Source: an uncultured Gammaproteobacteria bacterium (GTDB lineage: Bacteria > Pseudomonadota > Gammaproteobacteria > Xanthomonadales > Rhodanobacteraceae). Taken from it: DNA of 64,000 nucleotides. Positions 8,516 to 25,484 of this stretch are shown in pieces; position 1 is the stretch's first letter; the number at the start of each line of letters is the position of its first letter. Location: contig CAVYAZ010000002.1 in the NCBI GenBank assembly GCA_963766595.1, positions 112,924-176,923 of the forward strand, in the 5' to 3' direction. A model generated the notes under the pieces. That model made no database searches, had not been told where the DNA came from, and was given only the letters and a program-made list of their open reading frames with translations. The translations under genes and the position numbers were made by a program.

Positions 8516-9364
8516 CTAATGTGACTCTGGCTGCTTCACCGGCGGCGGCTGCTTGTCTTCGGGCTTGTGCTGCTGCTCGTACTTCTCCTGCTCCTTGAGC
8601 AACGCGTCGACGTCGACGTCCTCGACGCCCTGCAGCGACTGGATCGCTTCCATCGGTGGATTGCCGCGATAGATCTTGTACAGGCGCCGCTGGCGATAGG
8701 CATCGCGGTAGAACACGTAAGGATCGTAAACGCCTTCAAGCAGGCCTTCGGCATCGATTGCGCTCGAACGCAGCGTGATGAGGTAAACGAACGTCGGCAG
8801 GTAGTGCACATCGAGCTGGAAGCTGTGACCCGCGGAGTACCAGGACAGCGGGTCGAAAAAGTAACGATCGACCGGGAACGCAATGGCTTCGCGGACCGTG
8901 GTCGAACCGAACAGCGGCAGCACCAGATACGGACCCTCGGGAACGCCCCACCTTGCCAGCGTCACGCCCAGATCGGTCGTGCTCGCATCGATGCTCATCT
9001 CGCTGGCCGGATCGAACAGTCCAAAAATGCCGATCGTCGTGTTGATGACCAGGCGGCTGGTTGCCTTGAACGCTTCCTTCGGATTGGCCTGCAGGAGGTC
9101 GTTGGCGATCGTGATCGGCGACTCGATATTCGCGAAGAAGTTGCTGACCAGCCGTCGGGTCGTCTCGTTCGTGATCTTGCGATAGCCCACGGCAACCGGC
9201 CGTATCGCGACGCGGTCGGCAAAATCATTGAATGCGTACATCTTCCGATTGAAGTCTTCGTACGGGTCGTCCTTGCGCGGCATCGGCGTGGCGCAACCGG
9301 AGAGCAGTACGGCAATCAGGAGCAGAATCGTGTGCCGGCTGGGACGCAGAGTCAGGATCAGCAT
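8516..9364 (-). CDS. mlaA: MlaA/VacJ lipoprotein
   Basis: Lipobox LSGC, DPYEDFNRKMYAFND, GPYLVLPLFG, DPYVFYRDAY; convergent with mlaFEDCB. Confidence 0.95.
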   Translation of the reverse strand: MLILTLRPSRHTILLLIAVLLSGCATPMPRKDDPYEDFNRKMYAFNDFADRVAIRPVAVGYRKITNETTRRLVSNFFANIESPITIANDLLQANPKEAFKATSRLVINTTIGIFGLFDPASEMSIDASTTDLGVTLARWGVPEGPYLVLPLFGSTTVREAIAFPVDRYFFDPLSWYSAGHSFQLDVHYLPTFVYLITLRSSAIDAEGLLEGVYDPYVFYRDAYRQRRLYKIYRGNPPMEAIQSLQGVEDVDVDALLKEQEKYEQQHKPEDKQPPPVKQPESH

Positions 9365-9608
9365 GATTTTTTTGTTGTAGGGTTTCCTGCGGCGCCGGTT
9401 TTCGCCCGGCGGCGTCGTGGCTTGCGCCGGGCAAATGCACCACGGCGAATCTGGGTTTGAGTTAGCCTAAATCAAGTCGGCCCGTTTTTGCCGGCCCCGC
9501 CGATCGCCGTCCATGACTTGTTCAGTTTCAACCGAAGCGATCGACCGGTCGTTCGAGCCTACGATTCCTGGTGTTAAGCGCGCCGATACGTCCGTTTGGG
9601 TTCCCAGT

Positions 9609-9638
9609 TTGCACTGCACCATACCCACCGGCTACAAT
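9609..9638 (+). promoter_or_regulatory. Putative sigma70 promoter of rpoZ-spoT
   Basis: TTGCAC (9609-9614), 18-nt spacer, TACAAT (9633-9638). Confidence 0.6.
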
Positions 9639-9683
9639 GATGTGAGTGTAAATTCGTGAATTCACATAGATTTTGAGGGTTTT

Positions 9684-9977
9684 ATGGCACGCATTACCGT
9701 GGAAGACTGCCTGGCAGTCGTCGACAACCGTTTCGAACTGGTGCTGATGGCGACCAAGCGCGCGCGCCAGCTGGCCAAGGGTGCCGATGCCCTGGTCGAG
9801 TCTACCAACGACAAGCCGACCGTGCTGGCCCTGCGCGAGATCGCCGGGCGCAAGGTCAATCCCGAGCTGATCGCCGAAATCGATCGCCAGGAACGCGAGA
9901 AGGCCGAGCGCGAGGCACTGGAATGGGCCGCGGCCGAAGTCGACGACGATCTGTCCAAGGGCGGCGACGACCTGTGA
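9684..9977 (+). CDS. rpoZ: RNA polymerase omega subunit
   Basis: [30 protein letters not shown]...[12 protein letters not shown]. Confidence 0.97.
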
Positions 9978-10082
9978 TCGAGGCCGCGAGCCACTGCTTG
10001 CGCCGCAACGGCGACGAGTCAGTGGCCGCGATGTGCCGCACCCGTCGAACACGGACGGGTTGATCAAGGACCGAGGTGACCC

Positions 10083-12218
10083 TTGAGCACGGCGATGCAG
10101 GAAGTCCTCCCTGCTAACGTGCAAGCGTTGGAAAAGCGCCTGGCGTACCTGCCGGCCGAGCAGATCGAGCGCGTGCGTCAGGCCTATCTGACCGGCGCGC
10201 ATGCCCACGCCGGGCAGACCCGCAAGAGCGGCGAACCATATATCACGCATCCAGTCGCCGTCGCCGGCATCCTCGCCGACCTCGGCATGGACGTCGAAAC
10301 GATCATCGCGGCGATCCTGCACGACACTCTCGAAGACACGCCGTTGTCGCGCCAGGAACTGGAGTCCAGTTTCGGGGCGACGGTCGCGGAGCTGGTCGAC
10401 GGTGTCACCAAGCTCGACAAGATCCGGTTTTCGACCCAGCAGGAAGCCGCGGCCGAAAGCTTCCGCAAGATGCTGCTGGCGATGGCGCGCGACCTGCGCG
10501 TGATCCTTATCAAGCTGGCCGACCGCCTGCACAACATGCGCACGCTCGGCGCGATGGCGCCCGAGTCGCGCTGGCGCATCGCCCGCGAAACGCTCGACAT
10601 CTATGCGCCGATCGCCCAGCGACTGGGCATGAACAAGTTCAAGTCCGAGCTGCAGGAACTCGGTTTCCGCGTCCTCTTCCCGTTCCGCCACCGGGTCATC
10701 GCCGCGCGCATCAAGAGCATGCTCGGCACGCGTCGCGAGTCAATGGGCAAGATCGAGGCGGCGCTGTCGGCGCGCCTGAATCAGGAACGCGTCAAGCACC
10801 GCATCATCAGCCGGGTCAAGTCGCCATACAGCATCTTCGCCAAGATGCGCAGCGAGCACAAAACCTTTGCCCAGGTCATCGACGTCTACGGTTTTCGCGT
10901 CGTCGTCGAATCGACGATGGAGTGCTACCACGCGCTCGGCGCGGTGCACGCATTGTACAAGCCGCTGGAGGCGCGTTTCCGCGACTTCATCGCCATCCCG
11001 AAGGCAAACGGCTACCAGTCGCTGCACACGGTGCTGTTCGGCCCGTTCGGCGCGCCGATCGAGATCCAGATCCGCACCGAGGACATGGACCAGGTTGCCG
11101 AGCGCGGTGTTGCCGCGCACTGGGTCTACAAGACCACCGGCCCGGCCAATTCGGCCCAGTCGCGCGCGCACGAATGGGTCGCCGGCCTGGTCGAGACCCA
11201 GACCCGCGACGTGTCGCCGCTCGATTTCATCGAAAATGTAAAAGTGGATTTGTTCCCGGACGACGTGTACCTGTTCACGCCGAAGGGACAGATCCTGGCG
11301 CTGCCGCGCAACGCCACGACGCTCGATTTCGCCTACTTCGTGCATACCGACATCGGCAACCACGCCGTCGCCGCGCGCGTCGACAAGAAGCTCGTGCCGC
11401 TGCGCACGCGGCTGAACTCGGGCGAGACGGTCGAAATCATCACCGCGCCGTCGGCGCATCCGCATCCGCAGTGGCTGGAATGGGTCGTGACCGGCCGCGC
11501 GCGCATCGCGATCCGCAATCACCTCAAGCACCTGCAGCACGAGGACGCGGTCGAATTCGGCCATCGCATGCTCGACCGCGCGCTCGAGAGCCGCGGCGTG
11601 CCGCTCGAGGCGATTGCGCCGAAAGTGCTCGACCGCTACCTGGCCAAAGGCAAGTACAAGCGGCTCGAGGAACTGCTCGCCGATATCGCGCTGGGCAACC
11701 GCATGCCGGACCAGGTCGCCTCGCAGCTGGTGCAAACGCGCCGCGCCGAAGGCGAGCCCGCGGCGCCCAGTACCGAGAAGATCCTGATCACCGGCAGCGA
11801 GCGCGGCGTGCTGACGTTCGGCAACTGCTGCCATCCGGTGCCGGGCGACGAAATCGTCGGCTATCTTTCGGCCGGAAAAGGCATCGTCGTGCACCGCCAG
11901 GACTGCCCGAACGTCGCCGAATACCGCAAGACGCCGGAGCGCATGATCGCGATCGACTGGGACCGCGCGGTCACCGGCGACTACCGCGTGCAGCTGCGCA
12001 TCGTCGTCGACAACAAGCCCGGCGTGCTGGCCACCGTCGCGGCGTCGATCGCCGAGGGCGACTCGAACATCGAGAACGTCGAGTACCAGGAACGCGACCA
12101 GCAGACCTCGACGTTGCTGTTCACGATCGAGGTTCGCAACCGCAAGCACCTGGCCGATGTCATGCGACGTGTGCGCAGGGCCAGCGTCGTGCACGGGGTG
12201 TATCGGCATCCGACATAG
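10083..12218 (+). CDS. spoT: Bifunctional (p)ppGpp synthetase/hydrolase SpoT
   Basis: HD domain (ILHDTLEDT), RVKSPYSI, NGYQSLHT, TGS and ACT domains; TTG start. Confidence 0.96.
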   Translation: MSTAMQEVLPANVQALEKRLAYLPAEQIERVRQAYLTGAHAHAGQTRKSGEPYITHPVAVAGILADLGMDVETIIAAILHDTLEDTPLSRQELESSFGATVAELVDGVTKLDKIRFSTQQEAAAESFRKMLLAMARDLRVILIKLADRLHNMRTLGAMAPESRWRIARETLDIYAPIAQRLGMNKFKSELQELGFRVLFPFRHRVIAARIKSMLGTRRESMGKIEAALSARLNQERVKHRIISRVKSPYSIFAKMRSEHKTFAQVIDVYGFRVVVESTMECYHALGAVHALYKPLEARFRDFIAIPKANGYQSLHTVLFGPFGAPIEIQIRTEDMDQVAERGVAAHWVYKTTGPANSAQSRAHEWVAGLVETQTRDVSPLDFIENVKVDLFPDDVYLFTPKGQILALPRNATTLDFAYFVHTDIGNHAVAARVDKKLVPLRTRLNSGETVEIITAPSAHPHPQWLEWVVTGRARIAIRNHLKHLQHEDAVEFGHRMLDRALESRGVPLEAIAPKVLDRYLAKGKYKRLEELLADIALGNRMPDQVASQLVQTRRAEGEPAAPSTEKILITGSERGVLTFGNCCHPVPGDEIVGYLSAGKGIVVHRQDCPNVAEYRKTPERMIAIDWDRAVTGDYRVQLRIVVDNKPGVLATVAASIAEGDSNIENVEYQERDQQTSTLLFTIEVRNRKHLADVMRRVRRASVVHGVYRHPT

Positions 12219-12420
12219 GGAAGGGGCTAGGGACCAGGGACCAGGGACCAGGGACCAGGGATGAGGAGCGGCTGCTTTGCGTCGTGCGCTCCGTCAAATG
12301 GACAGACGGAACGTGCTTGCGTACCTTCCGTGAATCGCTACGATCTGTCGCCACTCTCGCCACTCTCGCCACTCTCGCCACTCGCCCCTAGTGCCCAGTC
12401 CCTAGCCCCTAGCCCCTAGT
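12217..12420. repeat. Heptamer element: (CAGGGAC)x4 arm, inverted (CCCCTAG)n arm, plus internal 9-mer CGCCACTCT x3
   Basis: Read directly between spoT and ridA. Confidence 0.8.
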
Positions 12421-12432
12421 CACGGAGTTCCC

Positions 12433-12816
12433 ATGCCCCGCCAAACCATCCACAGCGACAGCGCACCGAAGGCCATCGGTCCGTATTCGCAAGCCGTGCG
12501 CAGCGGCAACACGCTGTACTTCTCCGGGCAGACGCCGATCGATCCGGCAACCGGGGCGCTCGCGACCGGCGACATCTCGGCGCAGGCGCGGCGTGTGTTC
12601 GACAACCTCAAGGCGGTGTGCGCGGCGGCCGGCGGCTCGTTCGACCAAGTCGTTCGGGTCGGCATTTATCTGACCGACCTCGGCAATTTCGCGGCCGTCA
12701 ATGCAGTCATGAAAGAGTACTTCGCCGAACCGTTTCCTGCGCGCTCGACGATCGGCGTCGCCGCCCTGCCGCGGGACGCGCAGGTGGAAGTGGACATGAT
12801 CCTGTCGTTCGACTGA
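12433..12816 (+). CDS. ridA: RidA/Rid family enamine deaminase
   Basis: APKAIGPYSQAV, SGQTPIDP, FPARSTIGVAALP. Confidence 0.93.
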   Translation: MPRQTIHSDSAPKAIGPYSQAVRSGNTLYFSGQTPIDPATGALATGDISAQARRVFDNLKAVCAAAGGSFDQVVRVGIYLTDLGNFAAVNAVMKEYFAEPFPARSTIGVAALPRDAQVEVDMILSFD

Positions 12817-12876
12817 GTCGCGTTGGCCGAATGCGCGCTGGATCGTGCAGGATTTGCTATCCGGGGAAATGAGGCG

Positions 12877-14973
<2,097 letters not shown>

Positions 14974-14977
14974 GTTC

Positions 14978-15066
14978 CAGGGCCGAGGGCTGAGGGCTGA
15001 GAGAAGATCAAGAGCGTCACCTATACGCGCTTGCTCTTACTTCCTCAGCCATCAGCCCTCAGCCCT
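14978..15066. repeat. Inverted heptamer arms (GGGCTGA)n / (TCAGCCC)n
   Basis: Between recG and the nucleoside hydrolase gene; same family as 3129-3260. Confidence 0.75.
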
Positions 15067-15099
15067 AAAATAACGAGCCACCTGAGCCCTTATCCAAAA

Positions 15100-16029
15100 A
15101 TGACAAAAATGAAACTCCTCATAGATACCGACCCGGGCGTCGATGATGCGCTGGCGATCCTGATGGCGCACGCCCACGCCGACGTGCTCGGCCTTAGCAT
15201 CGCGGCGGGCAACGTCGGGATCGGCCACACGGTCGCCAACGCGCTCAAGCTCGTCGAGATCATCGGCGCCGACACACCGGTATTTGCCGGTTGCGCGACG
15301 CCGCTGGTGTTGCCGGCCGAGGACGCGGCGTTCGTGCACGGCGCGGATGGCTTCGGCGATACCGGATATACGCCGAGTGCGCGCCGCGCCGAGGACGAAG
15401 CCGCGGCGCTGGCAATCCTGCGCCTGTCGCACGCGCATGCCGGCAAGTTCGTGCTCGTCGCTATCGCGCCGCTGACGAACCTGGCGCTCGCGCTGAAGCT
15501 CGACCCGACCCTGCCGCAACGCGTGGCCAGTCTCGTGATCATGGGTGGGGCCGTGACCGGCCGGGGCAACACGCATCGGGTGCCGGCCGAATTCAACATT
15601 GGCTTCGATCCGGAGGCTGCGCACGTCGTGTTCACGTCGTTCCCGCGGTTCACGCTGGTCGACTGGGAGGCGACGATGCGCCACGGCATCGCGTTTGAAC
15701 GCATGCAGGCCTGGCTCGGCGCCGACGATCCGCGCGCGCGCTTTTACGCGTCGATCTCACGCAAGACGCATGCATGGTCGCGCGAACGCGGCCGGCCGAA
15801 CGTGCTGGTTGCCGATGCGCTGGCCATGGCTGTCGCGCTGCATCCCGACATCGTCACGCGTGCCGAGGACCGGCACGTTGCGATCGAACTGACCGGCACG
15901 CACACACGCGGCGCTACGGTCGTCGACTGGGAATCCAGGCTGGCGCCGGCGCCAAACGCCCGCATCGTGCTCGATGTCGACCAGGCGCGCTTCGAGACGC
16001 TGGTCGCGGCAGCACTGGGTTCCGCCTAG
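15100..16029 (+). CDS. Inosine-uridine-preferring nucleoside hydrolase
   Basis: IDTDPGVDDA motif, APLTNLA, AEFNIGFDPEAA. Confidence 0.93.
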   Translation: MTKMKLLIDTDPGVDDALAILMAHAHADVLGLSIAAGNVGIGHTVANALKLVEIIGADTPVFAGCATPLVLPAEDAAFVHGADGFGDTGYTPSARRAEDEAAALAILRLSHAHAGKFVLVAIAPLTNLALALKLDPTLPQRVASLVIMGGAVTGRGNTHRVPAEFNIGFDPEAAHVVFTSFPRFTLVDWEATMRHGIAFERMQAWLGADDPRARFYASISRKTHAWSRERGRPNVLVADALAMAVALHPDIVTRAEDRHVAIELTGTHTRGATVVDWESRLAPAPNARIVLDVDQARFETLVAAALGSA

Positions 16030-19000
16030 ACCGGCTTGGGACTGGCGTCGCCGGATGGCCTGCGCGGCGCGGCTGCCTTGTCCGGTTCGTCCACCTGCAC
16101 CGGACTGCGCACCCACAAATCCATTTGTGGAAACGCGATTTCGATATCGTTCTCGCGGAACACCTCGGCGATGCGCATCTGCAGATCGTTCTTCACAATG
16201 GGGCGCTGATTGACTTCGGCAACGAAGACGTTCAGATCGAACAACTGGGCGTTGTCGCCGAAACCTGTCAGGAAGCAGACGGGGGCCGGATCGGACAGCA
16301 CCAGCGGATGCGTCGTGGCGGTCTGCATCAGCAGGCGTTGCGCCAGACGCGGATCGCTGCGATAAGAGACGGCGACGCGCGTCACGATGCGCGTTATCGA
16401 GTCAGTCAGCGTCCAGTTGGTCAGGCGATCGGTGATGAAGCTCTTGTTCGGCACGATGACTTCGCGGTGGTCCGCGTCGACGATCGTCGTCGCGCGCGTG
16501 CGAATGCGCGTTACCGTGCCCTCGACGTTGCCGATTGAGACGGTGTCGCCGACGCGAACCGGGCGTTCGAACAGCATCATCAGTCCTGAAATGAAATTGG
16601 CGAAGATCTCCTGCAGGCCGAAGCCCAGGCCCACGGAAAATCCCGCGGCGAGCCACTTGAAGCTGCTCCAGCGCAGTCCGAGCAGCGCCAGGCCGGCGCA
16701 GGTGCCGGTGAACAGAATGACGTAGCGCGTGATCGTCGTGACAGCGTAGCGCGTCGGCGCATCGACGTTGAGCCGGCGCAGCACGCTGACCTCGAGCAGT
16801 CCGGGCAGGTTGCCGGTCGCCAGCCAGGTCAGGCTCAGCACGATCAGCGCCTCGAGCACACCGAGCAGGGTGACGTTCTCGTCTTTCCAGACGGCGATGT
16901 CGTCGAGCATCGCCAGCGCCGGAGTGACGTCGGACCAGATCCAGAGCAGCGAGATGATCACGGCGAGCGTCGTCAACCAGCGCAGCAGCCGTCGCGTCTG
17001 CTCGCCGACGGCGGCTACCGTGATTTCCTCAGGTTCGGGTTCCGGGGCGGCGCCCGCGTCTTCACGCTCGCGCTGCTCTTCGGCGGATTCCTGTTTCTGT
17101 TCGAGGCGCATGAGCGCCAACCGGCGTTCGCCCAGCACGAGCCAGCGCACGGCCAATCCATTCACCGACGCGATCAGCAGCAACACGCCCAGCGACGCGA
17201 TGACGTGGCGGCTCAGCGTCATCACGGTGACGAAATAACCGTAGAGCACGAGGCCGGCCATGAGCAAGAATCCCACGCTCATGAGGACGTGCACTGCCTG
17301 GCGCATGCGCAGCGGCTCGGCGAGGACCATGCCGCGGACCGTCCAGAGTCGGCCCGGGGCAAACAGGCGCCAGGCCACCGCGGCAAATCCGATCGCCGAC
17401 AGCGCCAGCATCAGACGCCCGACCGTATCGATCGGCGCCGGTGGTCCACGCAGCAACAGCATGCGCAGCACGAACAGCGTCGGCATTACGCATGCCGCGA
17501 ACCACGGCGCGGCGGCGCTCAATGCCTCGCGACGCGGTCGCGGCCAGCGAAAATGAGACTGGGCGAGTCCGTTTTCGAGCGTCATTGTGCGCAGGCACGC
17601 CACGGCATACGCCGGCATGACGAGGGCCGCGAACGCGTAGGCGGTTTCCTCGGTGAGATTTCCGCTGCTCGGCAGCTGCCGGCACAGGTAACTCAGCATC
17701 CAGAATGCGAACGCCATCGGCGCCGCGGCCACCAGTGTCCAGAACAGGGCCTTGCCGGTAAGCGCGAGGCGATCCGTGCGGATGCGGCGCATCGGGGCCG
17801 TCAACTGCTCGAGCTTCGACGCCAGGCGCCAGCGAGCCATGCCGAGCAGGATGAGGACGATCGCGGCCGCGGCCGATGTCAGCGGCGCCGCGACGATCGC
17901 CTGTTCGACGTTGACGGCCACGCGCCCCCAGCGGCGTGCGCCAAAAAATGTGCCGAAGTCCTGCGACAGCTGCGTGAACCAGGCCGCATCGATCGGCTTG
18001 TGGCTTGGGGTCCAGAGCAGGCGCGCATCGAGTATGTTGTCGAGCTTCTCGGTCGAGACGACGAGTTCGTGCAGTGTCTGTTCGGCGTCGCTCTGGACCG
18101 TCGCCAGGCGCGTCTGCTGGAGCAGCAGCGCCTGCACGATCTCGGCGCGAGTGTTGAGCAGGCGAAACGCGCCGGTGCGGAGGTCGTTCAGACGCTCGGC
18201 AGGCGGCGCCGGCATTCGCGACAATGCCTGCTCTACGGCGTTGCCCAGATCGCTCAGGCTGCTCTGCTGTTCGCGCAAGCCGATCAGGTTGATGCGCGTC
18301 TGGGCAAGGTCGGTCTGAAGCTTGGCAAGCGAGCGCTTGAGCAAGGTCAATGATTTCAGCCTGCTCTTTTCGGCCAGCAGTATCAGTCCGACGGCTTCGC
18401 TGACGCCGCCGATCCGAATGCGCTCCTCGGTGTTCTTCAGCGCCTGCGCGGTGTCGCGCCGCCAGCTTTCCCAGTCTTGCTGCTGCGCGTGCAACTGGCT
18501 GAGTTGGTGAACCGAGTCGGCGAGCTTTTCGGCCAGCGAAACGTTCGCGTTCGCAGTTTCACCGAGCGCCCGGAACTCGGCCGCGAACCGGTCGCGTTCC
18601 TGCGCGACGCGGGTGGCCAGATCAGCGGCCGCGGCTCCGGTGCGGTCGAGCACGAGATTTTCCAGTGTCGCGACGTGCTGGTTCAGCTCGCTGACCCTGC
18701 GCTGGCGATCGCGCAGCTGCGCGGCAAGCAGGCGCATGCGGCTTTCGTAGGTGCGGTCTTCCAGATTGAGCAGCTCGATCTGGATCGTCGCGCGCCGCGC
18801 GGCGGCCTGTGCCCGCAGCGTCTGCGCCTGTGCGGCGGCGCCATCGCCGGCGGCCGGCGCAGTCTCGCCGCTCTTGTCCAGCGCTGCCCTGGCCGTCGCC
18901 AGTTCGGCGCGAAGCAGGCCTGGCCTGAGTGACTGTCGGTCGATCTCGGCCTGCAGTGTCGCGATGCCGGACTTGGCGGCGGAAAGATCGTCACGCTCGC

Positions 19001-20177
19001 GCGCAAGAAGTGCTTCGAGTTGTTCGACACTGGCGCGTTCCGGCAATGCGGTGCGCCACGCCAGCAGTGCGGTGGCATCGTTTTGAGCGAGCGCATCCTC
19101 GAGTTTCTGCGCTTCGGCATCGGCGCTGGCGGAAGTCTGGGTCAACGCCTGCCACTGGCCCGCGAGTTCATCGGCAGCGGATTCGTCGTCCTTCGCGGCG
19201 CGCAGCAATTCTTCGATCATGCCGCGCTGCTCGGGATCGCGCGTCTTTGCCGCCGCCTGCAGCGCGGTATCGATCGCAGCCGCATGCGATGCCGGCAACG
19301 CCGGTGCCGCGGCAGTCACCGCCGCGGGGGCAACAACCTTCTTCAGCCAGCGCTCGCGCAGCGATTTCTCGTCGTCGACGCTGATCGTCTTGAGCGCCGC
19401 GTTGATGATGTCGCGCAGCGTCGGCCAGTCGTCCCGGATGGCGAGGGTCACTGGCGTTTCGAGTGCAAGCTGGCCCGACAGCACGATGTCCTGATCGAAT
19501 TTCAGCCGCGCAAGCGCATCGGCGGTCCTGAACGGATCGCCGATGAATGCATCGACCGTCTTGTCGCGCAGTGCATTGAGCGCTGCGCCAATATCCGCGA
19601 AGCTGCGCGCCTTCGCCGAACTGTCCTGCGCGGCGAGCAGCGCCGCCCAGGGCGACGCTTCGACCAGCGCGATCGAATGTCCCCTGAGTTGGTCCAGGCT
19701 GCTGAATCCGGGCTCGCCGCTGCGCGCGAAGACGGCGGCGGACAGGCGCATGTACGGCGCGGTGTACAGGATGTTTTTCTTGCCGTCGGCCCCGGGAGCC
19801 GCGGCAGACATCAGGTCGGCGCGGCGTTCGGCGAGCGCGCGCAAGGCCTCGCCGCGGCTGGCTGTGCGAACGACGCGGAACTCCAGTCCGGTGCGCGCCG
19901 CGATCAGCTTGAGATAGTCTGCGCTGAGGCCGCGCTGGCGGCCTTCGGCGTCGATGCCATCGATCGGGGCGAGGTCCGGATCCGGGGCAACGCGGATGAT
20001 CTTATGGGCCTCCACCCACTGGCGCTGGGCCGAGGTCAGCTCGAGGGGCTGGGCGTTCAGTCCGGCCGCCATGGACAGCAGGACCAGGAAAAACGCCAGC
20101 GCACACGGGAGTTTGTAGCGTTCGAACGGTCGTCTGGCCGCGGCGGGTTCGCGGCCCGGACAGGGCAAATACGTCAT
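16026..20177 (-). CDS. MscK/KefA-like mechanosensitive channel with an N-terminal SBP family-3 (BvgS/EvgS-type) periplasmic domain, 1383 aa
   Basis: Signal peptide; LTSAQRQWVEAHKIIRVAPDPDLAP...GLSADYLKLIAARTGLEF; long coiled coil; multiple TMs; GLGFGLQEIFANFISG...ERPVRVGD MscS core. Confidence 0.88.
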   Translation of the reverse strand: MTYLPCPGREPAAARRPFERYKLPCALAFFLVLLSMAAGLNAQPLELTSAQRQWVEAHKIIRVAPDPDLAPIDGIDAEGRQRGLSADYLKLIAARTGLEFRVVRTASRGEALRALAERRADLMSAAAPGADGKKNILYTAPYMRLSAAVFARSGEPGFSSLDQLRGHSIALVEASPWAALLAAQDSSAKARSFADIGAALNALRDKTVDAFIGDPFRTADALARLKFDQDIVLSGQLALETPVTLAIRDDWPTLRDIINAALKTISVDDEKSLRERWLKKVVAPAAVTAAAPALPASHAAAIDTALQAAAKTRDPEQRGMIEELLRAAKDDESAADELAGQWQALTQTSASADAEAQKLEDALAQNDATALLAWRTALPERASVEQLEALLARERDDLSAAKSGIATLQAEIDRQSLRPGLLRAELATARAALDKSGETAPAAGDGAAAQAQTLRAQAAARRATIQIELLNLEDRTYESRMRLLAAQLRDRQRRVSELNQHVATLENLVLDRTGAAAADLATRVAQERDRFAAEFRALGETANANVSLAEKLADSVHQLSQLHAQQQDWESWRRDTAQALKNTEERIRIGGVSEAVGLILLAEKSRLKSLTLLKRSLAKLQTDLAQTRINLIGLREQQSSLSDLGNAVEQALSRMPAPPAERLNDLRTGAFRLLNTRAEIVQALLLQQTRLATVQSDAEQTLHELVVSTEKLDNILDARLLWTPSHKPIDAAWFTQLSQDFGTFFGARRWGRVAVNVEQAIVAAPLTSAAAAIVLILLGMARWRLASKLEQLTAPMRRIRTDRLALTGKALFWTLVAAAPMAFAFWMLSYLCRQLPSSGNLTEETAYAFAALVMPAYAVACLRTMTLENGLAQSHFRWPRPRREALSAAAPWFAACVMPTLFVLRMLLLRGPPAPIDTVGRLMLALSAIGFAAVAWRLFAPGRLWTVRGMVLAEPLRMRQAVHVLMSVGFLLMAGLVLYGYFVTVMTLSRHVIASLGVLLLIASVNGLAVRWLVLGERRLALMRLEQKQESAEEQREREDAGAAPEPEPEEITVAAVGEQTRRLLRWLTTLAVIISLLWIWSDVTPALAMLDDIAVWKDENVTLLGVLEALIVLSLTWLATGNLPGLLEVSVLRRLNVDAPTRYAVTTITRYVILFTGTCAGLALLGLRWSSFKWLAAGFSVGLGFGLQEIFANFISGLMMLFERPVRVGDTVSIGNVEGTVTRIRTRATTIVDADHREVIVPNKSFITDRLTNWTLTDSITRIVTRVAVSYRSDPRLAQRLLMQTATTHPLVLSDPAPVCFLTGFGDNAQLFDLNVFVAEVNQRPIVKNDLQMRIAEVFRENDIEIAFPQMDLWVRSPVQVDEPDKAAAPRRPSGDASPKPV

Positions 20178-20247
20178 CGGCTTGCGAGACCAGGCCGTAA
20201 AAGGGTAATATTAGCCTCTTTTCTCAATGATTTGCGGAGCTCACGCC

Positions 20248-20502
20248 ATGAAAGCCGACATCCATCCCAAGTACCAGAACGTGGTATTCCAGGATGTCTC
20301 CTCGAATTTCGCGATTCTCACGCGATCGACGATGACCAGCAAGGAAACGATCAAGTGGGAAGACGGCAAGGAATATCCTGTCGTCAAGGTGGAAATTTCC
20401 AGCCAGTCCCATCCGTTCTACACCGGCAAGCACAAGGTCATCGATGCGGGCGGCCGCGTCGACAAGTTCCGTCGCCGCTACGGCGCCAAGCCGACCGCGT
20501 AA
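20248..20502 (+). CDS. rpmE2: 50S ribosomal protein L31 type B (Zn-free)
   Basis: MKADIHPKY..., [24 protein letters not shown]; no CxxC. Confidence 0.95.
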
Positions 20503-20813
20503 GCGCCGCCACCGATCCTGGTTTGCGTGCCGGCGAGGGATTCCGCAGCCGGCGCGAAAACAGGGCGGGGCTCTGCTGCACCGGGTGAGCCGCTGGCTCC
20601 CACGCAATCGCATGCCGTGCGCGCCCCATTCGACACGGCATCGCGACAGCTGTCTTTGCGCCGCTCCGACACCGTGTGTGCGGTAACGTTCGGGCAAACG
20701 CTTGTGCGATAATTCGCCGTTATCGACAGTGCGCACGCACTGATGCGGGGGCTGATTGCACACCGATGCCCGGTGTTCTGCCGTGCCGCTGGACCATGAC
20801 AGGAGATCTCGCC

Positions 20814-22092
<1,279 letters not shown>

Positions 22093-22106
<14 letters not shown>

Positions 22107-22734
22107 TTCCCCCTACGCCGGCGGCGCTGGCGGCCAGCAGTTCTTCGAGCGTCGTCAGCGACGCGCGACGCATGGGTTTTTCGCCGCTGCGGTCGAGCGG
22201 CGCCTGGCGCAGCAATTCCTCCGGCAGTACGGTCGCGTCAACCGGTATGTTTCCGGCGCTGAACACGAATGCCGGAAATTCGCGTTGCACGTCGCGCGTA
22301 AGGCGCAGCGGCCGCGATTGCTGTTCGTAGGGTATTCCGCGCTCGTCGAGAAAGCCGGCGACGGTCTCGGCAGTCTCGCTGAAAAGGTGCAGGCAAACGC
22401 TGGAATGCCGGTCGGCACTGCCATCGAGCACGGCGCCGACCAGGCGCGGCTCGAAACGCTCAAAGAAGCGCAATGCCTCGCGCGCGCTTTCGCGCAGTTC
22501 GCGCAGGCGCCGCGGCTGATCCTCGGCATCGAAAAGGCGCTGGTATTCGCGCAGCGCGTCCTCGATTTCCGCATTCTTCGGCAGGGCCGTATCGGCATGG
22601 AGGCCGAGCCGCTCGGCGGCCTTGCGCTTGGCGGCATGGTAGTCGCGGATGCCGTCCTCGCTGATCAGGCGCGCGGCTTCAGCCGCGATGCGGCGCCGCG
22701 TCTCGTCGCCTCGTCCGGGACCATGCCTGTGCAT
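22093..22734 (-). CDS. Conserved hypothetical protein (HTH-like N-terminus, nucleotidyltransferase-like middle region)
   Basis: [32 protein letters not shown]...[10 protein letters not shown]; translationally coupled to mrcA (TGATG). Confidence 0.75.
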
Positions 22735-25266
22735 CAGAAAATGCCGTAGGCATCCTGCTGCACGCGCTTTTCCTGTTCGCTCGGATTGTTCGGTCCGGCG
22801 GCAAGGCGCGCGACGTCTTCGACCTTGAAGACCTCGAGCATGCTGTGCGCGTCTCCGCTCGAAGCCAGCTGGCCAGTCGCCGGGTCGATGCGCGCCGTGG
22901 TGATGCCGGGCGGCATCTCGAATGGCTTTTCCGGAACACCCTTGAGGGTCTCGCGCATGAAGCTGATCCACATCGGCAACGCGGCCTGCGCGCCGAATTC
23001 GCCGACGCCGTTGGAGCGGCCGAGCGAACTGAAATCGTCGAAGCCGACCCAGGCGCTGGCGACGACGGCATCGTTATAGCCGGTGAACCAGGCGTCGCGA
23101 TGATCGTTGGTCGACCCGGTTTTGCCGGCAAGGTCGGCACGCTTGAGCACCATTGCGTCGTGACCCGGTGCCGCGGCGCACGACGTCATGCAGCAGCGAC
23201 CCGATGAGATAGGCGATACGCGCGTCGAGGACGCGCGGCGCAAGATTCGGCTTGTTCGGATCGGCGGGCGCCGATGGAGCGGCTGTTGCCGCCTGCGCGT
23301 GCGCAATCGGCGAAAGCGCCGTCGTCCTGGCGCCATCGCCCTGCGCCTTTTCGGCTGTGGCCTGCGTGGCTGCAGTGCGCGCGTCCTCGATCAGGCGATC
23401 GGGACACTGCCGGCAGGCGACCGCCGGATGTGCTTTGTAGATCTCCTTGCCGTCGCGGTCGCTGATCGAATCGATGAAGTACGGATCGACCAGGAAGCCG
23501 CCATTGGCGAAGACGGCGAAGCCGCGCGCCATGATGATTGGCGACACCGAGGCGGTGCCTAGCGCCATCGACAGATTGTCCGGAATCTGGTCGAGCGGGA
23601 TGCCGAACCGGGTCACGTATTCGCGCGCGTAGCGCACGCCGATCGCGTCGAGCAGGCGCACCGACACCAGGTTCTTCGATTGCACCATCGCTTCGCGCAG
23701 TCGCATCGGCCCGTCGAACTTGCCGTCGTCGTTCTGCGGCGTCCACAAGCCGTTCGGCTTGGACGGATCGGCAAAGACGATCGGCGCATCATTGATGATC
23801 GATGCCGGCGTAAATCCGTGTTCGAACGCCGCCGCATAGAAATATGGCTTGAAGCTCGAGCCCGGCTGGCGGTTGGATTGGACCGCGCGGTTGAACTTGC
23901 TGCGCGCATAGCTGAATCCTCCGACTTCGGCCTGGATCGCGCCATCCTCGGGATTGAGCGCAATCAACCCGCCCTGCGCGGCCGGCACCTGCGAGAGCTT
24001 CCATTTGCCTTCCGGGTTGCGCGCCAGGCGCACGATGTCGCCGGGTTTGAGCAGCGCATCGACACGCTTTACGGGACCCCCGCGATGCGCTTCGTCTTTG
24101 TACGCCTGCGCCCAACTCACGGCACCGAGGTCCAGCGGCACCGACTGCCCGTCGTCCAGGTACACGAGCGCCGTCTTCTCGGTGCTCTCCGTGACAATGC
24201 CCGGGACCAGGCCGACCACCGGGCGGTAGGCGTCGAGCTGCTTGTCGAGTTCGGCCGGCGTCGGCTGCGCAGAAAGTTCGACATGCGCTTCCGGGCCGCG
24301 ATAACCGTGACGCTGGTCGTAGCTGATCAGATCGTCCCGCAGCGCCTGGTTTGCCGCGTCCTGGGCGCGCGAGTCCAGCGTCGTATGGATCGTATAGCCG
24401 TCCGTCAATGCTTCATTGCCGAGCCGCTCGAGCGCGTCGCGTCGCGCCATCTCGGCCAGATACGGCGCTTCGACTTCGATCGGTGGCTCGTGCGCGTACG
24501 ACAAGTCGGGCTCTGCGGCAGCAGCCTTGAACTGCGCCGCGGTGATGAAATTGTTTTCGAGCATGCGCTGCAACACATAGTTGTTGCGGCGCTCGACCGC
24601 GCGCGACCGATTGTTCAACGGATTGCCGGTCGACGGGAATTTCGGCAGCGACGCCAGCATCGCGCTCTCCGACAGCGACAGCTGGTCGAGCGTCTTGCCG
24701 TAATAGAACTCGGCTGCCGCCGCGACGCCATAGGCGCGATTGCCGAGGAAGATCTTGTTGAGGTACAGCTCGAGGATCTCGTCCTTGGTCAACGCCTGTT
24801 CGATGCGCCGGGCAAGGAACAGCTCCGACAGCTTGCGCGTGTAGCTCTTTTCCGAACTCAGGAAGAAGTTGCGCGCGACCTGCTGGGTTATCGTGCTCGC
24901 GCCCTGGGTCTTTTCGCCGCCGCTGAAGACCACATGGATTCCGGCGCGGAGCACGCCTTGCCAATCGAAGCCGGGATGTTCGTAGAAACGCGCATCCTCG
25001 GCGGCGATGAAGGCGCTTTTCAGCTGCGCCGGGATCTTGTCGATCTTGACCGGGATGCGCCGCGTTTCGCCAAACGTGGCAATCAGCCGGTTGTCCGCCG
25101 TGTAGACGCGCAAGGGTACCTGCAGGCGTACGTCGCGCAGGGTGTCCACCGACGGCAGGCGCGGCGAGATCAACCAGTAGGCAACCCCTATTGCGGCGCA
25201 GCCGAGCACTACCCCGACCAGCAGAAGGATCAACAGATATCGGGTCAGACGCAGAAGCAGGCGCAT
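22734..25266 (-). CDS. mrcA: Penicillin-binding protein 1A; 1-nt frameshift near 23165
   Basis: EDARFYEH, GASTITQQ, RKLSE glycosyltransferase motifs; QPGSSFKP, SKN, and KTG (in the shifted frame) transpeptidase motifs; divergent from pilM. Confidence 0.93.
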
Positions 25267-25484
25267 GCAAATTATCGGGGGGCGAAAGGCAAAAAGTGGA
25301 TCGATTAGGCAGTCCGTGAGTATAAGGTGTGCTACCGTCCGGCCGTTAGCGCGGGATGTGGCGCTTTCGTGGCTTTTCACCGCAAATTCACTTTCAGATC
25401 ACTAGCTTGCCGGGACTTGTCAACGGACTGTTGATAAATCGTTAAAGTTCGTATTTAATGTGGATGCGCATATATCGCTCGTAA

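What the first reader, a model, noticed from the sequence alone, without database searches (positions are those of the whole stretch)
16026..20177. Solute-binding domain fused to an MscK-like channel: candidate ligand-gated mechanosensitive channel
Seen: one uninterrupted 1383-aa ORF in which about 240 residues after the signal peptide resemble the SBP_bac_3 Venus-flytrap sensors of BvgS/EvgS kinases, followed by the MscK coiled coil, TM region and MscS pore. Established: E. coli MscK has a large periplasmic region but no SBP domain; flytrap-plus-pore is the architecture of glutamate receptors and GluR0. Inference: periplasmic ligand binding could gate or tune an MscS-family pore. I do not know of a characterised example.
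Basis: partly seen in the sequence, partly recalled or inferred. Interest (0 to 1): 0.75.

Follow-up and report, generated by a model that had tools for sequence, protein, structure and literature searches.

The report
Flytrap sensor domain fused to MscK channel
A soil bacterium of the Rudaea/Tahibacter group makes a pressure-release (MscK-type) membrane channel that carries a conserved periplasmic flytrap-type binding domain, so it is a real and apparently undescribed candidate for a channel tuned by both membrane stretch and a chemical, though nothing yet shows the domain controls gating.

Summary
ORF 16026..20177 (-) is one uninterrupted 1383-aa gene. It encodes a signal peptide, an SBP_bac_3/Venus-flytrap domain (aa 43-281), a 12-22-aa Ala/Pro-rich tether, then a complete MscK/MscM-type channel.

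The fusion is not an assembly artefact:
- It recurs in at least 50 protein clusters and 14 GTDB species, all named ones Lysobacterales (Rudaea, Tahibacter), in conserved synteny.
- Independent soil metagenome contigs span the junction.
- The flytrap evolves under the same purifying selection as the pore (dN/dS 0.12-0.17).

Its fold is closest to the sensor flytraps RmcA, BvgS and EvgS. Most family members keep the canonical amino-acid-binding Arg, Asp and aromatic residues. The window's subclade lost that Arg and has Arg108 at the aromatic position.

- The flytrap is an intact N-terminal domain on a flexible tether about 480 residues before TM1, not a split glutamate-receptor-style clamshell.
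- SBP-less orthologs occupy the same locus.
- In E. coli MscM, deleting the distal bundle it would attach to did not change gating.

Ligand tuning is plausible; obligatory ligand gating is unlikely. I found no paper describing this architecture. Verdict: new variant of a known kind, moderate interest.

The parts
20052..20177 (-). N-terminal Sec-type signal peptide, aa 1-42: n-region RRPFERYK, hydrophobic core LPCALAFFLVLLSMAAGL, cleavage motif LNA|Q. The A-x-A|Q motif is conserved in orthologs.
   Evidence: Sequence; hydropathy peak at aa 23-41; ortholog alignment. Most orthologs start about 23 residues later, so the exact start codon is uncertain. The only in-frame alternatives before the hydrophobic core are ATG at codon 1 and TTG at codon 4.
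19335..20051 (-). Periplasmic Venus-flytrap / SBP_bac_3 (PBP type II) domain, aa 43-281. Putative cleft residues by homology: D66, D68, L69, R108, W177, D214, Q236, R248, D250, W251. The position of the canonical carboxylate-binding Arg is Gly132.
   Evidence: Pfam PF00497 at 54.9 bits; PDB sequence hits BvgS, RmcA, EvgS; AF2 pLDDT 87.4; Foldseek target-normalised TM 0.84-0.89 to 7ejg and 3mpk; motif tables; dN/dS 0.12-0.17.
19284..19334 (-). Ala/Pro-rich flexible tether, aa 282-298 (KVVAPAAVTAAAP...), ending at the conserved ALPxSxAA motif that opens the MscK-like periplasmic domain.
   Evidence: The linker is 12-22 aa (mostly 14-15) and not conserved in sequence across orthologs. It has pLDDT below 50 and no secondary structure in both AF2 models. 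pTM falls from 0.81 for the flytrap alone to 0.47 for flytrap plus helical domain.
17913..19283 (-). Helical periplasmic domain, aa 299-755, equivalent to bundles PB1 and PB2 of MscK/MscM; includes the Pfam MscS_porin region.
   Evidence: PF12795 at 39 bits, aa 308-510; NCBIfam MscK alignment from aa 288; long helices in the AF2 model; MscK 7uw5 alignment.
16887..17912 (-). MscK-specific membrane domain, roughly TM1-TM8, aa 756-1097.
   Evidence: PF12794 MscS_TM at 230.7 bits, aa 768-1097; hydropathy peaks at 760-786, 810-832, 849-867, 886-909, 916-940, 961-979, 985-1010 and 1064-1091.
16098..16886 (-). MscS-like core, aa 1098-1360: TM9-TM11 including the pore helix (LAAGFSVGLGFGLQEIFANFISGLMMLFERP), plus the cytoplasmic beta and alpha-beta domains.
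   Evidence: PF21088, PF00924 and PF21082; NCBIfam MscS models aligned to aa 1135-1357; PDB MscS, YnaI and MscK hits. Many invariant columns, e.g. G1183-L1184-G1185-F1186-G1187 and E1204-R1205-P1206.
16026..16097 (-). Short non-conserved C-terminal tail (aa 1361-1383) and the stop codon, which overlaps the end of the convergent nucleoside hydrolase gene by 4 nt.

Best explanation
The gene encodes an inner-membrane MscK/MscM-type mechanosensitive channel, presumably heptameric. Each subunit carries one BvgS/RmcA-like Venus-flytrap domain at the membrane-distal tip of its periplasmic helical domain, on a short flexible tether.

Shown here: the fusion is real, vertically inherited in soil Lysobacterales, and under the same purifying selection as the pore. 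The flytrap folds as a type II binding protein.

Inferred: the flytrap binds a small periplasmic solute. For the family as a whole this is most likely an amino acid or related carboxylate. In the window's subclade the pocket has been re-tooled, with Arg108 in place of the canonical Arg. The liganded (closed) flytraps then dock on, or release, the periplasmic rings or each other, and so shift the tension threshold or the K+ co-requirement of an otherwise tension-gated pore. On this reading the flytrap is an accessory modulator, not the gate.
For: - Architecture and fold.
- Recurrence: 27 full-length fused clusters at 42-91% identity plus a second subclade of 25. The fusion is present in 14 GTDB species representatives, all Lysobacterales.
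- Conserved synteny: PBP1, an unassigned ORF, citrate synthase and rpmE on one side of the channel; IU-nucleoside hydrolase and RecG on the other.
- Short contigs from four independent soil or rhizosphere runs span the junction at 19118-19376.
- Selection: flytrap identity tracks the rest of the protein. dN/dS against L001-L003 is 0.12-0.17, against 0.12-0.16 for the MscS core.
- Pocket: the Asp equivalent to LAO D161 (D214) is kept throughout. 22 of 25 subclade-2 proteins and the deep-branching Tahibacter-type proteins keep the [ST]xxR arginine and an aromatic residue, as in arginine-sensing RmcA. Every sequence of the window's subclade that lacks that Arg has Arg at the aromatic position.
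- SBP_bac_3 is treated as an amino-acid-specific family (PMC9602780), and RmcA's flytrap senses L-arginine (PMC9028604).
- Precedent for periplasmic control: MscK needs external K+, sensed by the periplasmic domain, and its periplasmic ring dilates on opening (PMC9653487, PMC13591265, PMC13503660).
Against: - There are no functional data of any kind.
- The tether is flexible and variable in sequence. AF2 gives no confident inter-domain placement (pTM 0.47), so rigid mechanical coupling is unlikely.
- In E. coli MscM, removing PB1 had no significant effect on conductance, activation pressure or hysteresis, and the K+ sensor is PB2.
- SBP-less orthologs sit at the same locus and nest inside the fused clade, so the channel does not need the domain.
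- The window protein itself lacks the canonical carboxylate-binding Arg and Thr/Ser. Its closest structural relative, BvgS VFT2, is described (my recollection of the literature, not checked here) as working closed and unliganded.
- The Arg relocation is a single evolutionary event, so it is weak as covariation evidence.
Confidence: 0.45

Rival explanations
1. The flytrap is a ligand-independent module or an ion/pH sensor. It stays closed without an organic ligand, as reported for BvgS VFT2, or it responds to pH or alkali metals, as reported for EvgS. It would act as a structural cap or steric regulator of the periplasmic rings, for example by stabilising the closed ring or changing hysteresis.
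For: The closest sequence and fold relatives are BvgS and EvgS flytraps. The window subclade lost the canonical [ST]xxR motif, and the loop that carried it is variable. The AF2 model resembles closed (holo) ArgBP forms (query-normalised TM 0.61-0.67) more than apo forms (0.45-0.46), although AF2 often predicts closed forms. MscK/MscM gating is already ion-dependent through the periplasmic domain.
Against: Most of the wider family keeps a canonical amino-acid-type pocket. In the window subclade an Arg reappears at another cleft position instead of the pocket decaying. A flexible tether suits a rigid structural cap poorly.
Confidence: 0.25
2. The flytrap is an anchor or tether. It binds a cell-envelope component (for example a peptidoglycan stem peptide) or a partner protein. 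This would localise the channel, or couple its periplasmic crown mechanically to the wall, adding force-from-tether input to force-from-lipid gating.
For: This rests only on inference. The domain sits at the most membrane-distal point of a long helical periplasmic domain, on a tether of fairly constant length (mostly 14-15 aa). SBP_bac_3-like modules act as non-transport regulatory domains in other periplasmic proteins such as MltF (my own knowledge, not tested here).
Against: There is no partner gene in the conserved neighbourhood, where all neighbours are housekeeping genes. The pocket residues look like those for a small-molecule amino-acid site. There is no direct evidence.
Confidence: 0.1
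3. The flytrap captures a solute for transport through the channel, acting as a receptor that feeds or gates solute-specific uptake or efflux, by analogy with binding domains tethered to ABC importers.
For: Tethered SBP_bac_3 domains occur in ABC importers: the GlnP SBD1-SBD2 structures appear among the fold matches.
Against: MscS-family pores are non-specific tension-gated valves with no known docking site for binding proteins. There is no ABC permease or ATPase nearby. The domain is closest to sensor-type flytraps, not transporter-type ones.
Confidence: 0.04
4. The ORF is an artefact: two genes joined by misassembly or by a sequencing frameshift.
For: None found.
Against: The same single ORF occurs in at least 50 independent clusters and 14 species genomes. 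Independent metagenome contigs cross the junction. SBP-less orthologs have no separate SBP gene next to them.
Confidence: 0.01

Closest known systems
E. coli MscK (KefA) and MscM (YjeP), the 11-TM MscS-like channels with large periplasmic helical domains (PDB 7uw5/7ux1, 11sm/11so/11sq)
   Same: Signal peptide, a periplasmic helical domain of about 460 aa, the MscS_TM block, and the MscS-like pore and cytoplasmic cage. The sequence matches are E 3e-101 and 4e-96, and the NCBIfam MscK model aligns almost end to end.
   Different: About 255 extra residues (flytrap plus tether) are inserted between the signal peptide and the first helical bundle. The score is below the NCBIfam equivalog cutoff (590 vs 991 bits), so it is a relative of E. 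coli MscK and not shown to be its functional equivalent. K+ dependence is unknown.
Sensor-type Venus-flytrap domains: P. aeruginosa RmcA PBP domain (7ejg), B. pertussis BvgS VFT1/VFT2 (4q0c, 3mpk), E. coli EvgS (9ilw)
   Same: These are the best sequence and fold matches. They share the N-terminal LTxxQxxW...H..IRV lead-in and the C-terminal R-x-R-W helix. The nearest non-channel relatives are multi-flytrap PAS/histidine-kinase proteins.
   Different: In those proteins the flytrap's last helix runs into a transmembrane helix and a cytoplasmic kinase or c-di-GMP enzyme. Here it is followed by a flexible linker and a channel's periplasmic domain. There is one flytrap per chain, and presumably seven per channel.
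[quoted passage not shown]
   Same: This is the only ligand-binding-domain fusion to an MscS-family channel named in the 2026 review (PMC13591265). It sets a precedent for MscS-like channels that have taken on roles beyond an osmotic safety valve.
   Different: The ligand domain in bCNG is cytoplasmic, C-terminal and of a different fold. Here it is periplasmic, N-terminal and a flytrap.
Ionotropic glutamate receptors and bacterial GluR0
   Same: A type II binding-protein fold is combined with an ion channel in one polypeptide. The GluR0 ligand-binding core is a weak sequence match (E 1e-5) and a fold match at rank 29.
   Different: The pore is unrelated: a tetrameric K+-channel-like pore against a heptameric MscS pore. 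In GluRs the clamshell is split (S1/S2) around the pore helices, so closure pulls directly on the gate. Here the clamshell is intact and remote from the pore. There is no Lig_chan domain.
Binding domains tethered to ABC importers (GlnPQ SBD1/SBD2, OpuA) and the N-terminal SBP-like module of MltF
   Same: An SBP_bac_3-type domain is covalently tethered to a membrane or periplasmic effector by a short linker and acts by docking (GlnP structures among the fold hits; the rest is my own knowledge).
   Different: The effector here is a mechanosensitive channel with no known docking surface for a binding protein.

Membership tests
MscS superfamily (MscS-like channels) | MscS core: pore-lining TM3-type helix, beta domain and alpha-beta domain (Pfam MS_channel_1st/2nd/3rd) | tested here: met
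   PF00924 at 79.3 bits (cutoff 20.2) and PF21082 at 42.8 bits (cutoff 21). PF21088 at 21.8 bits is just under its 23.1 cutoff. PDB MscS and YnaI hits at E 1e-16 or better.
MscK/MscM subfamily | Eight extra N-terminal TM helices (MscS_TM) preceded by a large helical periplasmic domain (MscS_porin) and a signal peptide | tested here: met
   PF12794 at 230.7 bits and PF12795 at 39 bits (cutoff 34.4); about 9 strong hydropathy peaks plus the two less hydrophobic core helices; MscK 7uw5 at E 3e-101.
MscK/MscM subfamily | Scores as an equivalog of E. coli MscK (NCBIfam NF008438 cutoff) | tested here: not met
   589.6 bits against a cutoff of 991. It is a family relative, not demonstrably the same function.
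MscK/MscM subfamily | Tension gating that depends on periplasmic K+; heptameric assembly | not testable with these tools
   Needs electrophysiology and structure determination. This property is known for E. coli MscK (PMC9653487).
SBP_bac_3 / type II periplasmic binding protein (Venus flytrap) fold | Two alpha/beta lobes joined by a two-strand hinge; matches the family profile | tested here: met
   PF00497 at 54.9 bits (cutoff 26.4). AF2 pLDDT 87.4 with the expected strand and helix order. Foldseek E 8e-24 to 2e-20 with target-normalised TM 0.84-0.89.
Amino-acid-binding SBP_bac_3 proteins (LAO, GlnBP, ArgBP, RmcA type pocket) | [ST]-x-x-R carboxylate clamp after beta-4, an aromatic residue at the N-terminus of helix 2, and an Asp in lobe 2 for the alpha-amino group | tested here: inconclusive
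   Window protein: the Arg position is Gly132, the Thr/Ser position is Gly129, the aromatic position is Arg108, and the Asp is kept (D214). Subclade 2 and the Tahibacter-type members keep Arg, an aromatic residue and Asp. Residue equivalences to LAO come from my own alignment reasoning. Those to RmcA and BvgS come from the HMMER and MAFFT alignments.
BvgS-family flytrap sensor kinases | Periplasmic flytrap(s) followed by a TM helix and cytoplasmic PAS/HisKA/HATPase domains | tested here: not met
   No kinase, PAS or receiver domains. Only the flytrap is shared.
Ionotropic glutamate receptor / GluR0 | Lig_chan pore domain inserted between the S1 and S2 halves of the binding domain; tetrameric P-loop pore | tested here: not met
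   No Lig_chan hit. The flytrap is contiguous (aa 43-281) and lies about 480 residues upstream of TM1.

The most novel reading that the evidence does not exclude
This would be the first natural MscS-family channel regulated from the periplasm by an organic ligand. Seven tethered flytraps would read an amino acid or related solute and set the tension threshold, or the K+ requirement, of an MscK-type pore, so the channel would respond to chemical and mechanical signals together. It would also give the enigmatic distal periplasmic bundle (PB1) a role as a platform for regulatory input.
Probability: 0.35. Interest if true: 0.8.

Novelty: new variant of a known kind. Interest (0 to 1): 0.55.

Why it matters
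What the large periplasmic domains of MscK and MscM are for, and how they feed into gating, is an open question. The distal bundle PB1 is invisible in every cryo-EM map and had no measurable role in MscM (PMC13503660).

A conserved, selected sensor domain grafted onto exactly that end suggests the periplasmic crown can receive regulatory input. Two natural comparisons make this directly testable:
- fused versus SBP-less orthologs at the same locus;
- canonical versus re-tooled binding pocket.

If ligand tuning is shown, it would extend ligand regulation of MscS-family channels from the cytoplasmic bCNG case to the periplasm. It would also offer a modular design for engineered chemo-mechanical valves. 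If no tuning is found, the gene is just another accessory-domain variant in one clade of soil bacteria.

Tried and rejected
- The word-indexed homolog search with the flytrap alone returned only 7 fragments.
- The exhaustive representative search with the flytrap profile was swamped by proteins with 3-8 tandem flytraps, which proved to be PAS/HisKA sensors. It gave no view of how widespread flytrap-MscS fusions are outside this clade, so that question stays open.
None found a paper on an SBP/flytrap-MscS or flytrap-MscK fusion. 'Flytrap' mostly retrieved papers on the plant. The Pivetti et al. 2003 review of the MscS family was not in the library.
- The promoter and terminator scan of 15800-20750 found no sigma-70-like promoter, and no more terminator-like sites than chance.
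- I rejected assembly artefact and gene-call fusion.
- I rejected an ABC-transporter operon context: there is no permease or ATPase nearby.
- I rejected membership of the GluR0/iGluR family: there is no Lig_chan domain and the binding domain is not split.
- I could not analyse pocket geometry because model coordinates are not exposed. Cleft assignments are by homology only.
Full report
**1. The observation**

The minus strand of 16026..20177 carries a single uninterrupted ORF of 1383 codons. Pfam places six domains along it:

| Domain | Residues | Score |
|---|---|---|
| SBP_bac_3 | 61-279 | 54.9 bits (cutoff 26.4) |
| MscS_porin | 308-510 | 39 bits (cutoff 34.4) |
| MscS_TM | 768-1097 | 230.7 bits |
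| MS_channel_1st | 1148-1189 | 21.8 bits (cutoff 23.1, just below) |
| MS_channel_2nd | 1191-1256 | 79.3 bits |
| MS_channel_3rd | 1264-1347 | 42.8 bits |

The NCBIfam MscK model aligns aa 288-1359 to profile positions 27-1091. The extra domain is therefore inserted exactly between the signal peptide and the point where mature MscK normally begins. The EvgS, LAO and ArtJ models hit aa 42-280 weakly.

The N-terminus has a Sec-type signal peptide: RRPFERYK, a hydrophobic core at aa 23-41, and LNA|Q. The A-x-A|Q cleavage motif is conserved in orthologs. With a periplasmic N-terminus and about 11 TM segments, the topology is that of MscK.

**2. The two halves**

*The flytrap.* The closest solved sequences are the BvgS periplasmic domain (4q0c, E 3.7e-29), the RmcA PBP domain (7ejg, 3.9e-22) and EvgS (9ilw, 1.7e-20). 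ABC-transporter binding proteins score 1e-10 or weaker, and the GluR0 ligand-binding core scores 1e-5. An AlphaFold2 model of aa 40-300, built on 23 family sequences, has pLDDT 87.4 and pTM 0.81. Foldseek against the PDB ranks the RmcA PBP domain, BvgS VFT2 and EvgS first (E 8e-24 to 3e-18; TM-score normalised to the target 0.84-0.89 for the single-domain entries). ArgBP, LAO and GlnBP follow, and the GluR0 core is at rank 29. This is a sensor-type Venus flytrap. A profile of the domain finds 22,809 representative proteins. The top scorers have 3-8 tandem flytraps and carry PAS or HisKA domains.

*The channel.* The closest solved sequences are E. coli MscK (7uw5, E 3e-101) and MscM (E 4e-96). 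The pore helix and cytoplasmic domains contain many invariant columns across the family.

**3. The fusion is real and inherited**

- The whole-protein search found 27 full-length clusters with the same architecture at 42-91% identity. Where a source names them, they are Rudaea sp. or Tahibacter caeni.
- A scan of one genome per GTDB species found the fusion as one ORF in 14 species. All are Lysobacterales or Rhodanobacteraceae where named (Rudaea, Tahibacter soli, uncultured).
- Searching with the most divergent of these (L013) revealed a second subclade of 25 further clusters with the same architecture. Its one member with a source name is a Lysobacterales MAG.
- The neighbourhood is conserved: PBP1, an unassigned ORF, citrate synthase and rpmE on one side of the channel; IU-nucleoside hydrolase, RecG and SpoT on the other. 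All are housekeeping genes, with no ABC-transporter components.
- The sequence occurs in soil and rhizosphere metagenomes. Short contigs from four independent runs cross the flytrap-linker-helix junction at 19118-19376 with 0-1 mismatches.

The assembly-error refuter therefore fails.

**4. The flytrap is under selection**

Across the 27 orthologs its identity to the window protein tracks that of the helical and TM parts. Against the three closest genomes (dS 0.4-0.5, not saturated), dN/dS is 0.12-0.17 for the flytrap and 0.12-0.16 for the MscS core. The linker is 0.16-0.27.

**5. The pocket**

Aligning the family with RmcA and BvgS VFT2 gives the following:

- The lobe-2 Asp equivalent to LAO D161 (D214 here) is kept throughout.
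- 22 of 25 subclade-2 proteins, and the deep-branching members of the window's subclade (Tahibacter soli, T. caeni, P0039, L011), keep the canonical [ST]-x-x-R arginine.
- At the N-terminus of helix 2, most subclade-2 proteins and three of the deep-branching members have an aromatic residue (Phe or Trp, as in RmcA); L011 and a few subclade-2 proteins have Ala or Leu.
- The Rudaea-type crown group, including the window protein, has lost that arginine (Gly132 here) in a loop that is now variable.
- Every sequence of that group has Arg at the aromatic position (Arg108).

The family as a whole thus looks like an amino-acid-type binder. RmcA senses L-arginine (PMC9028604), and SBP_bac_3 is regarded as amino-acid-specific (PMC9602780). 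The window's subclade seems to have re-tooled its pocket rather than let it decay. Two caveats apply: the switch is one evolutionary event, and cleft positions are assigned by homology, not from coordinates.

**6. How the flytrap is attached**

The conserved C-terminal R-x-R-W helix of the flytrap is followed by 12-22 residues (mostly 14-15) rich in Ala, Pro, Thr and Ser. Their sequence is not conserved. They end at the conserved ALPxSxAA motif that begins the helical domain. Both AF2 models give this stretch pLDDT below 50 and no secondary structure. The two-domain model (aa 40-620) keeps each domain at pLDDT around 85 but drops to pTM 0.47, so there is no confident relative placement. I read this as a flexible tether.

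**7. Natural versions without the flytrap**

Four clusters of about 1130 aa (P0032, P0033, P0035, P0038) are 53-54% identical to the channel part and lack the flytrap. A neighbour-joining tree of the channel part places them inside the fused clade. A fifth such cluster, P0034 (not in the tree), has a member that NCBI names Rudaea sp.. The P0035 locus has the same synteny, with only 155 nt between rpmE and the gene and an in-frame stop 25 codons upstream of the called start. There is therefore no room for a flytrap and no separate SBP gene. In these proteins the signal peptide is followed directly by the same A/P-rich linker and the PPSQA motif. The flytrap behaves as a cassette that was probably lost secondarily, and the channel evidently works without it.

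**8. Mechanism**

*Established background.* MscK needs periplasmic K+ as well as tension. The requirement is attributed to the periplasmic domain, whose proximal bundles form a ring that dilates on opening (PMC9653487, PMC13591265). In MscM the K+-sensitive element is the proximal bundle PB2. The distal bundle PB1 is unresolved in all maps, and its deletion had no significant effect on conductance, activation pressure or hysteresis (PMC13503660).

*In this protein* the order is flytrap, tether, PB1, PB2, amphipathic helix, TM1.

*Best-supported reading (inference).* The protein is a tension-gated MscK-type channel. Its seven tethered flytraps bind a small periplasmic solute and, depending on ligand state, dock on the periplasmic rings or on each other. 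This would bias ring stability and so shift threshold, hysteresis or ion dependence. I give it a confidence of 0.45.

*Rivals.*
- A ligand-independent or ion/pH-sensing cap in the manner of BvgS VFT2 or EvgS: 0.25.
- An envelope anchor or tether: 0.10.
- Solute capture for transport: 0.04.
- Artefact: 0.01.

A glutamate-receptor-like mechanism, where clamshell closure pulls directly on the gate, is not supported. The binding domain is not split around the pore, it is remote from the pore, and it is flexibly linked.

**9. Comparison with what is known, and novelty**

The protein is a member of the MscS superfamily and of the MscK/MscM architectural subfamily. It scores below the NCBIfam equivalog cutoff for E. 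coli MscK. Its extra domain is a member of SBP_bac_3 and is closest to the sensor flytraps. It is not a member of the BvgS kinase family or of the iGluR/GluR0 family.

The only ligand-domain fusion to an MscS-like channel named in a September 2026 review is bCNG, which has a cytoplasmic C-terminal cNMP domain (PMC13591265). None of my ten literature searches found this architecture described. Databases carry it only under automatic names such as 'transporter substrate-binding domain-containing protein' and 'potassium efflux system protein'. My searches could not show whether other MscS subfamilies elsewhere carry flytraps.

**10. Verdict**

The finding is real, conserved and apparently undescribed, and it is a clear, testable candidate for periplasmic chemical tuning of a mechanosensitive channel. 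Three things keep it from a high score: the evidence is purely architectural, the family is confined to one order of soil bacteria, and several observations point to an accessory role rather than a gate. These are the flexible tether, the dispensable PB1 in MscM, and the natural flytrap-less orthologs. I score interest at 0.55 and class it as a new variant of a known kind.

Noticed in passing
window 16026-16029: The channel gene and the convergent IU-nucleoside hydrolase gene (15031..16029 +) overlap by 4 nt at their stop codons. There is no terminator-like site between them. In the SBP-less ortholog locus L032 the overlap is 49 nt.
   Followed up: partly
window 20178-20250: Only about 50-70 nt separate the channel's ATG (20177, minus strand) from the divergent rpmE (L31) gene (20227 or 20248..20502, plus strand). 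No sigma-70-like consensus and no obvious Shine-Dalgarno sequence precede the ATG. Most orthologs' predicted proteins start about 23 residues later, so the true start is uncertain.
   Followed up: partly
L009:5779-10023: The fused ortholog in Rudaea MAG_CA158 has an in-frame stop near 8535, yet similarity to the window protein continues in the same frame to 10023. This is either a nonsense mutation (pseudogene) or a MAG sequencing error.
   Followed up: partly
L032:6001-9402, and P0032, P0033, P0035, P0038: SBP-less MscK orthologs occupy the same syntenic locus and nest within the fused clade in a neighbour-joining tree, which suggests secondary loss of the flytrap cassette. The called start of P0035 probably lies a few codons too far downstream, because an in-frame signal-peptide-like stretch precedes it.
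   Followed up: yes
window 19854-19856 (Arg108) and 19782-19784 (Gly132); family alignments: Family members have Arg either at the canonical [ST]xxR site or, in the window's subclade, at the cleft position that is usually aromatic. None of the sequences tabulated has Arg at both. Three subclade-2 proteins (P0222, P0223, P0225) have it at neither of those two positions. This looks like a relocation of the ligand-binding arginine, but it is a single event on the tree.
   Followed up: partly
window 8516-14973 and 20676-25380: The neighbourhood consists of housekeeping genes: MlaA (8516-9364 -), SpoT/RelA-family (10083-12218 +), RecG (12823-14973 +), citrate synthase (20676-22106 +) and a class A PBP (23074-25380 -). 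ORF 22093-22971 (-) has no Pfam hit, yet is conserved next to citrate synthase in eight of the orthologous loci.
   Followed up: partly
L014-L031: The nearest non-channel relatives of the flytrap (23-30% identity) lie in very large ORFs of 1000-2250 aa in Sedimenticolaceae, Thiodiazotropha, Burkholderiales and Pseudomonas genomes. None has an MscK part. They are probably multi-flytrap signalling proteins.
   Followed up: partly
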